Shown here: positions 61,653 to 62,257 of the stretch, one piece after another
Position numbering within the stretch: position 1 is the stretch's first letter
Layout of the letters: each line of letters opens with the position of its first letter
Assembly: GCF_988242995.1 (NCBI RefSeq)
Contig: NZ_OZ547043.1
Direction: 5' to 3' (one strand)
Length of the DNA: 64,000 bases
Notes under the pieces: model-generated
Databases searched by the model: none
What the model was told of the DNA's origin: nothing
The model's input: only the letters and a program-made list of their open reading frames with translations
Translations under genes and position numbers: made by a program

Positions 61653-62257
61653 CTTAGATGTCCGGTATTAAGTAAGTTGCACACACAATAATTTCGTCTT
61701 CAATTAAGATCTGCTTAACTAAAGAACGCTCGCTATTATTCAGATAATTCAAAATGAGCGTGACTGTGATGATAGGAATTATGTTTTTTACGGGAATGAG
61801 AATAATCTCAAATGAGAAATAACTCATTGATTGACAATATTTTTATTCAAGAAGTGTCATTGACTGTTAATACAATGTTGTAAAGGTAAGATAATCTGAT
61901 TTATCAATATTATTGTGTGATTTTTATGTGAGCAGAAGATATTCATCAGCAACGATTACATTAGTCATTTTATTTTGCCGACGGCCTCATTGTCGAAAAA
62001 TAAGCGTACGACAGTATTATCAGAAAAGAGTGATTTTTTATCCAACTACACTTCAGCGCACTGCGTTTAAAAAGTGCCTCTTTCTTATGCGGGATATCAT
62101 CATTTCATCATGATGTCTTTGATGAGCGGTGAACACAATACACCTGCGCTGTCTCTTCAGGATGAATCCCCTGGTCTGGTGCCTGCGGGCTGATGTTGCA
62201 GCAGAGCTTAGGTCACTTAGACGCTACTCAGTATTCATTTTTCAGAGGATGAAATTT

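What the first reader, a model, noticed from the sequence alone, without database searches (positions are those of the whole stretch)
61653..62257. AT-rich 600-bp interval between ymgG and the autotransporter with only a weak small ORF
K-12 annotates small proteins (ymgI, ymgJ) in the corresponding interval. The only ORF of 60 codons or more here is 61913..62113 (+, 66 aa, cysteine/arginine-rich, no obvious SD), and I cannot match it to a known small protein from memory. The interval probably also holds the autotransporter promoter. It is unresolved rather than novel.
Basis: inference. Interest (0 to 1): 0.2.

Follow-up and report, generated by a model that had tools for sequence, protein, structure and literature searches.

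The report
Known ymgI/ymgJ interval, likely regulatory DNA
The unmatched small reading frame is simply the E. coli gene annotated as ymgJ, with ymgI beside it on the other strand, so the interval is already known; comparison with other strains and species suggests that neither frame encodes a conserved protein and that the DNA instead carries control regions for the genes on either side.

Summary
Window 61653-62257 is a 605-bp AT-rich gap (36% GC against 49% for the window) between ymgG and an AIDA-type autotransporter, and its only frame of 60 or more codons is 61913-62113.

That frame is ymgJ. PGAP starts it at GTG 61928 (61 aa), and it matches K-12 YmgJ at 60/61 residues. PGAP also calls a third 39-aa frame at 62074-62193. 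The finding is therefore resolved as already known.

None of the three frames behaves like a gene:
- In 11 E. coli alleles their pN/pS is 0.7-1.9, against 0.00-0.03 for ymgG and ymgD.
- ymgJ is frameshifted in one strain.
- All three are broken or absent in E. albertii and the cryptic Escherichia clades.
- An exhaustive protein search finds no diverged YmgJ homologue.
- None has a Shine-Dalgarno sequence.

What is conserved is noncoding. One element is a near-invariant stretch of about 109 nt upstream of ymgG. The other is an RcsB-box consensus at 61797-61810, inside "ymgI", upstream of the RcsB-induced ymgGD operon. The 385 bp before the autotransporter is duplicated upstream of ypjA/ehaD, which suggests it carries that gene's promoter and leader.

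This is ordinary and of low interest.

The parts
61308..61652 (-). ymgG (114 aa, TTG start; YMGG glycine-zipper protein), left boundary of the interval
   Evidence: PF13441, E 2.9e-14. 6 synonymous and 0 nonsynonymous polymorphisms in 11 E. coli alleles.
61654..61827 (-). ymgI ORF (57 aa, ATG start). It is an allele 53/57 identical to K-12 YmgI, and its stop lies 1 nt before the ymgG TTG.
   Evidence: 1 synonymous and 7 nonsynonymous polymorphisms. A stop at codon 3 in the 4 other Escherichia species. No SD.
61653..61761 (-). Predicted 5' untranslated leader of the ymgGD mRNA (inferred; the transcription start is not mapped)
   Evidence: 100% identical between the window and K-12, and 90-94% identical across Escherichia although the overlapping ymgI frame is broken there. 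3 polymorphic sites in 108 bp, below the synonymous-site diversity of ymgD and ymgG. The OmrA/B paper treats ymgGD as an operon with a 5'UTR.
61769..61774 (-). Candidate -10 hexamer TATCAT (TATTAT in the cryptic clades) of the ymgGD promoter (inferred)
   Evidence: Kept in all 7 sequences of the Escherichia alignment, while the surrounding bases vary.
61797..61810 (.). RcsB-box consensus match TGAGAATAATCTCA, i.e. TN(G/A)GAN4TC(T/C)NA
   Evidence: the only match within about 40 kb. Consensus taken from PMC7913699. Kept in 11/11 E. coli and 3/4 other Escherichia, with nearly all changes at N or permitted positions. ymgG-ymgD is RcsB-induced in K-12 (PMC2731931).
61913..62113 (+).
   Evidence: same frame and same stop as ymgJ.
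61928..62113 (+). ymgJ as annotated by PGAP (61 aa, GTG start), 60/61 identical to K-12 YmgJ
   Evidence: 5 synonymous and 11 nonsynonymous polymorphisms plus one frameshifted allele. Broken in E. albertii and in the ypjA-upstream paralogue. No diverged homologues among 1.84 billion representatives.
62074..62193 (+). Third PGAP-called small ORF (39 aa, 'hypothetical protein'; GTG start here)
   Evidence: The start codon is GTG, ATG or ATA in different E. coli strains and is lost, with a stop at codon 3, in E. albertii. 3 synonymous and 8 nonsynonymous polymorphisms.
61874..62257 (+). Upstream region that travels with the autotransporter gene (probable promoter plus leader). It is 89.6% identical to the region upstream of ypjA/ehaD.
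   Evidence: (H28/H29).
62245..62249 (+). Shine-Dalgarno GAGGA of the autotransporter
62258..64000 (+). 5' part of an intact AIDA-repeat autotransporter (PGAP: 'adhesin-like autotransporter YpjA/EhaD'). It is the undeleted form of the K-12 pseudogene remnant next to minE and runs off the window.
   Evidence: (PF16168, E 3.4e-91).

Best explanation
The interval is the well-known E. coli ymgG-ymgI-ymgJ-autotransporter spacer. The ORFs are most likely chance reading frames in AT-rich regulatory DNA rather than functional proteins. The functional content is two back-to-back control regions.

(a) Left half, read on the minus strand. This is an RcsB-activated sigma-70 promoter for the ymgG-ymgD operon. 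An RcsB box at 61797-61810 is centred about 42 bp upstream of a predicted start near 61761, with a -10 hexamer TATCAT at 61774-61769. A conserved leader of about 109 nt follows, where post-transcriptional control such as OmrA/B would act. On this model the ymgI ATG lies upstream of the transcript.

(b) Right half. The 385 bp from 61874 to 62257 moves together with the autotransporter gene and presumably carries its promoter and long leader.

What is shown: the identity of the ORFs, their neutral evolution and their loss in sister species, the conservation of the leader and the RcsB box, and the published RcsB induction of ymgGD. What is inferred: the transcription start site, RcsB binding, and the position of the autotransporter promoter.
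For: Identity. The interval is 100% identical to E. coli NZ_CP062824, where PGAP annotates the three ORFs at these exact positions. K-12 has ymgI and ymgJ at the same positions. The proteins match at 53/57 and 60/61 residues.

Evidence that the frames are not coding. In 11 E. coli alleles, synonymous/nonsynonymous counts are ymgD 9/1 and ymgG 6/0, against ymgI 1/7, ymgJ 5/11 and ORF39 3/8. ymgJ is frameshifted in strain IPCEC42. The ORF39 start codon varies between GTG, ATG and ATA. The ymgI frame has a stop at codon 3 in E. albertii, E. whittamii, Escherichia sp. E1V33 and the SCPM-O-B-8794 lineage. ymgJ is full of stops in E. albertii and in the ypjA-upstream paralogue, and is absent from the cryptic clades. 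No Pfam or NCBIfam family matches any of the three. YmgJ has no diverged homologue among 1.84e9 representatives. None has an SD. ORFs of this size arise by chance in 26% of shuffles.

Evidence for regulatory function. Segment 61653-61760 is 90-94% identical across Escherichia although the frame is broken there, and it carries only 3 polymorphisms in 108 bp. The RcsB-box consensus (PMC7913699) is matched at 61797-61810 and is kept in 14 of 15 distinct strain or species sequences inside a zone that is otherwise 67-76% identical. ymgG-ymgD is RcsB-induced (PMC2731931), is envelope-stress induced (PMC5105897), and is treated as the ymgGD operon with a 5'UTR. The right half is co-duplicated with ypjA/ehaD.
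Against: - No transcription-start, ribosome-profiling or tagging data for this locus could be retrieved, so translation of ymgI or ymgJ is not excluded.
- ymgI is intact in 11 of 11 and ymgJ in 10 of 11 E. coli alleles sampled.
- The polymorphism sample is small (11 sequences, 8-16 sites per ORF), so weak selection cannot be excluded. For ymgJ, pN/pS is 0.68.
- The RcsB pattern is degenerate, with 2.4 matches expected per 64 kb. One lineage has a mismatch, and Edwardsiella has no clean box.
- E. albertii keeps a 42-codon ATG-initiated version of the 3' part of ymgI.
- The promoter scan is not above background (4 sites against 2.6 +/- 1.5).
- The autotransporter leader is not less polymorphic than other noncoding DNA within E. 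coli.
Confidence: 0.75

Rival explanations
1. ymgI and ymgJ are genuine but very young, E. coli-specific small proteins (orphan or de novo genes). They would be expressed under particular stresses, and their function would not yet be visible as sequence constraint.
For: Both are annotated in K-12 and named by PGAP. The ORFs are open in 11/11 (ymgI) and 10/11 (ymgJ) sampled E. coli alleles. Transcript signal assigned to ymgJ rose about 35-fold in an evolved BL21 strain (PMC7181518), and signal assigned to ymgI changed 16-fold in a sigma-70 mutant (PMC4888631).
Against: pN/pS is about 1 or higher, against 0.00-0.03 for the neighbouring genes. A frameshifted ymgJ allele exists. The frames are disrupted in every sister species and in the paralogue. 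There is no SD. ORFs of this size are expected by chance. The transcript changes are equally explained by the ymgGD and autotransporter leaders that overlap the ORFs.
Confidence: 0.15
2. The small ORFs act as cis-regulatory upstream ORFs rather than as proteins. ymgI, or its 3' part, would be translationally coupled to the weak TTG start of ymgG, since its stop TAA lies 1 nt before the TTG. ORF39 would act as a leader peptide controlling the autotransporter.
For: The ymgI stop and the ymgG start are 1 nt apart, and ymgG has a TTG start with only a weak SD. E. albertii keeps a 42-codon ATG ORF ending at the same place. The ORF39 frame from about codon 6 to its stop is open in E. coli, in the ypjA paralogue and in E. 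albertii.
Against: E. whittamii (frameshift plus stops) and the SCPM lineage (internal stop) interrupt the ymgI frame close to ymgG yet keep ymgG intact. The predicted Rcs-dependent start lies downstream of the ymgI ATG. ORF39 has no conserved start codon (GTG, ATG, ATA or none) and ends 64 nt before the autotransporter ATG. None of these ORFs has an SD.
Confidence: 0.08
3. The interval encodes a structured cis-regulatory RNA or a small RNA.
For: There are long leaders on both sides and a highly conserved leader of about 109 nt upstream of ymgG.
Against: There is no Rfam match at E<=1. No intrinsic terminator was found. Predicted folding energies are no better than shuffles, with z-scores of -0.12 and -0.86.
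Confidence: 0.02

Closest known systems
E. coli K-12 ymgJ (annotated 61-aa 'protein YmgJ')
   Same: Same position between ymgI/ymgG and the autotransporter remnant, same frame, same GTG start and same stop. 60/61 residues identical, with F47 here in place of C47 in K-12.
   Different: Here the downstream autotransporter is intact rather than deleted.
E. coli K-12 ymgI (annotated 57-aa 'protein YmgI')
   Same: Same position and strand, with its stop 1 nt before the ymgG start. 53/57 residues identical.
   Different: Four substitutions (S4F, K7E, H12P, A22V relative to K-12). PGAP therefore labels this allele only 'hypothetical protein'.
Upstream region of ypjA/ehaD (paralogous AIDA-type autotransporter)
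   Same: Window 61874-62257 is 89.6% identical to the 385 bp upstream of ypjA in O157:H7 and K-12. The match includes the 39-codon ORF and the SD and start region.
   Different: In the ypjA copy the ymgJ frame is broken by a stop after 11 codons and a 1-bp indel. The flanking gene is a pinH recombinase remnant, not ymgG.
RcsB-activated promoters with an RcsB box next to or overlapping the -35 region (rprA, osmC and similar, listed as direct RcsB targets in PMC7913699)
   Same: There is a perfect match to TN(G/A)GAN4TC(T/C)NA upstream of genes shown to be RcsB-induced. The box is conserved between species.
   Different: Binding, the transcription start and box-dependence have not been shown for ymgGD. 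The spacing to the promoter is my inference from a conserved -10-like hexamer.

Membership tests
YmgJ (E. coli K-12 small ORF) | Sequence identity to K-12 YmgJ over the full length | tested here: met
   60/61 identical, E 7e-43
YmgJ (E. coli K-12 small ORF) | Conserved position between ymgI/ymgG and the autotransporter or minE | tested here: met
   Same order and coordinates in K-12 and in the identical record
YmgI (E. coli K-12 small ORF) | Sequence identity to K-12 YmgI and position immediately upstream of ymgG on the same strand | tested here: met
   53/57 identical; stop 1 nt before the ymgG start
Bona fide protein-coding small gene (applied to ymgI, ymgJ and ORF39) | Purifying selection on the encoded protein (excess of synonymous change) | tested here: not met
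   pN/pS is 1.89, 0.68 and 0.84, none distinguishable from neutral; ymgD is 0.03 and ymgG 0.00 in the same 11 sequences
Bona fide protein-coding small gene (applied to ymgI, ymgJ and ORF39) | Reading frame kept open in related species and paralogues | tested here: not met
   Stops, frameshifts, start loss or absence in E. albertii, E. whittamii, Escherichia sp. E1V33, the SCPM-O-B-8794 lineage and the ypjA-upstream copy
Bona fide protein-coding small gene (applied to ymgI, ymgJ and ORF39) | Ribosome-binding site upstream of the start | tested here: not met
   No GGAG- or GAGG-like motif within 22 nt upstream of any of the three starts; the autotransporter and ymgD have one
Bona fide protein-coding small gene (applied to ymgI, ymgJ and ORF39) | Direct evidence of translation (ribosome profiling, tagging or mass spectrometry) | not testable with these tools
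   No held supplement mentions the genes. The papers found report only transcript changes or list them as uncharacterised.
RcsB-dependent promoter | RcsB box TN(G/A)GAN4TC(T/C)NA upstream of the regulated gene | tested here: met
   TGAGAATAATCTCA at 61797-61810, 145 bp upstream of the ymgG start
RcsB-dependent promoter | Conservation of the box relative to the surrounding DNA | tested here: met
   Consensus kept in 11/11 E. coli and 3/4 other Escherichia; the flanking 70 bp are only 67-76% identical
RcsB-dependent promoter | Downstream genes induced by RcsB | not tested
   From the literature only: ymgG-ymgD appears in the RcsB regulon table for K-12 (PMC2731931)
RcsB-dependent promoter | RcsB binding and a mapped transcription start at a compatible distance | not testable with these tools
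   The start near 61761 is inferred from the conserved TAT(C/T)AT hexamer; no TSS data were retrievable
AIDA-I-type (type Va) autotransporter (right flank) | AIDA passenger repeats | tested here: met
   PF16168, E 3.4e-91, 6 stretches in the first 580 residues
AIDA-I-type (type Va) autotransporter (right flank) | C-terminal beta-barrel translocator | not tested
   It lies beyond the window. In the record whose 605-bp interval is identical, PGAP annotates an intact 3303-nt CDS named YpjA/EhaD-like.
Known RNA family (Rfam) | Covariance-model match | tested here: not met
   0 matches at E<=1 in 60900-62600

The most novel reading that the evidence does not exclude
The three small ORFs could be young, E. 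coli-specific frames caught in the act of gene birth inside regulatory DNA. In particular, ymgI (or its 3' 32-42 codons) could serve as an upstream ORF whose stop (TAA, 1 nt before the TTG) couples ribosomes onto the weakly initiated, RcsB- and OmrA/B-controlled ymgG.
Probability: 0.1. Interest if true: 0.35.

Novelty: already known. Interest (0 to 1): 0.08.

Why it matters
It matters little. The finding is resolved as the annotated K-12 genes ymgI and ymgJ.

There are two modest by-products. First, it gives comparative evidence that ymgI, ymgJ and a third PGAP-called 39-codon ORF are probably not real protein genes, which is relevant to curation of the E. coli small-protein list. Second, it gives a testable placement of the RcsB-dependent ymgGD promoter and leader inside the 'ymgI' annotation.

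Tried and rejected
- **Rfam:** a scan of 60900-62600 at E<=1 found nothing.
- **Terminators and promoters:** no terminators were found, and promoter-like sites were not above shuffles. I therefore could not place the autotransporter promoter.
- **RNA folding:** neither the autotransporter leader nor the ymgG leader folds better than shuffles. A structured-RNA reading is rejected.
- **Constraint on 62094-62257:** I considered whether this segment is a constrained leader, because it is 95% identical to the ypjA copy and 81% to E. albertii. The paralogues' coding regions are just as similar at 86-96%, and within E. coli the segment is as polymorphic as other noncoding DNA, so the claim of constraint is dropped.
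- **OmrA pairing:** duplex prediction used a 5'-end OmrA sequence recalled from memory against the ymgG leader. It was no better than shuffles and is not used as evidence.
- **TSS, Ribo-seq and operon data:** I searched the held supplements for ymgG, ymgI and ymgJ. Either nothing was held or there were no occurrences.
- **Edwardsiella hoshinae:** the ymgGD upstream region has no clean RcsB box, with 0 exact matches and no 1-mismatch match upstream of ymgG. This is inconclusive.
- **NCBIfam and Pfam:** neither has a family for the three small ORFs.

Full report
**Observation**

The end of the window is the E. coli ycgH-ymgD-ymgG region. ymgD is at 60969-61304 (minus strand) and ymgG at 61308-61652 (minus strand). 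An autotransporter starts at ATG 62258 and runs off the window.

The 605 bp in between are 36.2% GC against 49.1% for the window, which is in the lowest 3.4% of 605-bp windows. It is 66 aa long, rich in Arg and Cys, and has no Shine-Dalgarno sequence. An ORF this long appears in 26% of dinucleotide-preserving shuffles of the interval, so its mere presence carries no weight.

**What it is**

The interval matches 5384 of 5426 complete E. coli genomes and is 100% identical to NZ_CP062824. In that record, and in K-12 MG1655, PGAP annotates three small ORFs at exactly these positions:
- a 57-aa minus-strand ORF at window 61654-61827, which is ymgI in K-12;
- ymgJ at 61928-62113 on the plus strand (61 aa, GTG start);
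- a 39-aa 'hypothetical protein' at 62074-62193 on the plus strand.

It is 60/61 identical to K-12 YmgJ.

The flanking proteins are a YmgD-family protein, a YMGG glycine-zipper protein and an AIDA-repeat autotransporter. No Pfam or NCBIfam family covers the three small ORFs.

**Are the small ORFs genes?**

I aligned 11 E. coli alleles of the locus and classified every polymorphism.

| ORF | Synonymous | Nonsynonymous | pN/pS |
|---|---|---|---|
| ymgD | 9 | 1 | 0.03 |
| ymgG | 6 | 0 | 0.00 |
| ymgI | 1 | 7 | 1.9 |
| ymgJ | 5 | 11 | 0.68 |
| ORF39 | 3 | 8 | 0.84 |

ymgD and ymgG are under strong purifying selection. The three small ORFs are statistically indistinguishable from neutral. Several further observations point the same way:
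- One strain carries a frameshifted ymgJ.
- The ORF39 start codon is GTG here, ATG in K-12 and ATA in UTI89.
- In four other Escherichia lineages fetched through YmgD, the ymgI frame has a stop at codon 3. E. whittamii adds a frameshift and E. albertii has lost the ATG.
- ymgJ is full of stops in E. albertii. It is missing from the cryptic clades, where homology ends at window 61929-61931 and minE follows about 175 bp later.
- A paralogous copy of window 61874-62257 sits upstream of ypjA/ehaD. There too the ymgJ frame is broken.
- An exhaustive HMMER search of YmgJ against 1.84 billion representatives returned seven hits. Six are fragments or read-through forms of the same E. coli sequence at 88% identity or more, and the seventh is a repetitive, unrelated 457-aa protein at 32% identity.
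- The literature retrievable here lists ymgI and ymgJ as uncharacterised or reports only transcript-level changes.

**What is conserved instead: the left half**

Segment 61653-61760 is 100% identical between the window and K-12. It is 90-94% identical across Escherichia even where the overlapping ymgI frame is broken. It carries 3 polymorphic sites in 108 bp, which is below the synonymous diversity of the neighbouring genes. This is the behaviour of a functional untranslated leader.

Upstream of it, 61797-61810 (TGAGAATAATCTCA) is a perfect match to the RcsB box TN(G/A)GAN4TC(T/C)NA. The consensus comes from PMC7913699 and the match. The pattern is expected about 0.02 times in 605 bp. It is retained in 11/11 E. 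coli and 3/4 other Escherichia sequences, with nearly all changes at N or permitted positions, inside a zone that is otherwise only 67-76% identical.

A -10-like hexamer TAT(C/T)AT at 61774-61769 is kept in all seven sequences of the species alignment. It predicts a start near 61761, which would put the box centre near -42.

ymgG-ymgD is a published member of the RcsB regulon (PMC2731931). It is strongly induced by envelope stress (PMC5105897) and is described as the ymgGD operon with a 5'UTR targeted by OmrA/B.

On this model the ymgI ATG at 61827 lies upstream of the transcript. The transcription start and RcsB binding are inferences, not observations.

**The right half**

Window 61874-62257 is 89.6% identical to the 385 bp upstream of the paralogous autotransporter ypjA/ehaD. 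The block therefore travels with the gene and probably holds its promoter and leader. A good SD (GAGGA, 62245-62249) precedes the ATG.

I could not place the promoter, because promoter-like sites are not above background. I do not claim constraint on the leader either: the paralogues' coding regions are as similar as the leader, the segment is as polymorphic as other noncoding DNA in E. coli, and it does not fold better than shuffles. No Rfam family and no terminator were found.

**Comparison and novelty**

Everything in the interval is already annotated in K-12 or by PGAP. The additional points are:
- all three small ORFs look like non-genic frames in AT-rich regulatory DNA;
- the RcsB-dependent ymgGD promoter and leader probably lie under 'ymgI'.

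These are small curation-level inferences. Interest is low.

**Confidence**

| Claim | Confidence |
|---|---|
| The ORFs are ymgI and ymgJ | ~0.99 |
| They are not functional proteins | ~0.75 |
| RcsB-box promoter model for ymgGD | ~0.6 |
| The autotransporter promoter lies within 61874-62257 | ~0.6 |

Noticed in passing
window 62258-64000 (and L001 4106-7408): The autotransporter next to ymgJ is intact here (3303-nt CDS in the record whose 605-bp interval is identical). K-12 and most E. coli carry a large internal deletion starting after window 62228, which leaves only a beta-barrel remnant next to minE. The 5' end (62200-62600) is present at >=95% identity in only 406 of 5426 complete genomes.
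   Followed up: partly
window 58250-60913: ycgH is an intact 887-aa autotransporter here and in several other strains. In K-12 it is a frameshifted pseudogene with an internal stop.
   Followed up: no
window 62225-62231; L007 and L015: Some strains (WP9-S17-ESBL-11, HET6) carry a 7-bp tandem duplication, TACTCAG TACTCAG, exactly where the K-12-type deletion begins. This hints at a fragile or slippage-prone junction.
   Followed up: no
L010-L012 (Escherichia sp. E1V33, E. whittamii, 'E. coli' SCPM-O-B-8794), equivalent to window 61929-61931: The cryptic-clade Escherichia lack ymgJ, the leader and the autotransporter altogether. Homology stops at the ymgJ start codon and minE follows about 175 bp later. 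They nevertheless retain 61874-61929, which is also part of the ypjA-type module, so a deletion in these lineages seems more likely than an insertion in E. coli.
   Followed up: partly
L013 1-1240 (E. albertii NBRC 107761): The E. albertii copy of the autotransporter downstream of the conserved leader has no long ORF and looks degraded. A 42-codon ATG ORF corresponding to the 3' part of ymgI is present.
   Followed up: no
L005 2995-3096; L020 1122-1241: PGAP names some alleles or truncations of the 39-codon ORF 'ATPase' (WP_240765524.1, WP_071987222.1). This is an evidently spurious product name for a peptide of 40 aa or fewer.
   Followed up: no
L005 (strain N9) 2248-3131: In strain N9 an IS1A element abuts the leader at window ~62098. 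The whole ycgH-ymgD-ymgG-ymgI-ymgJ segment is missing, and the remnant is joined to the ycgX-ymgL-ymgK region.
   Followed up: no
L014 3470-3500 (Edwardsiella hoshinae, upstream of ymgG): An inverted repeat TTAGG-N7-CCTAA is followed by ATTCCCGT, the same 8-mer that follows the RcsB box in E. coli. However, it does not fit the N4-spaced RcsB consensus.
   Followed up: partly
window 61665-61672 (minus strand): UUAAUACC, 13-20 nt upstream of the ymgG TTG, is complementary (with one G-U pair) to nts 7-14 of the OmrA/B 5' end, a sequence I recalled from memory. This fits the preprint's statement that Omr nts 3-6 are not in the ymgG duplex. My duplex prediction was no better than shuffles.
   Followed up: partly
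window 61381-61671 (+): A 96-aa ORF lies antisense to ymgG. It is a typical shadow frame of a Gly/Ala-rich gene and is not annotated in any record examined.
   Followed up: no
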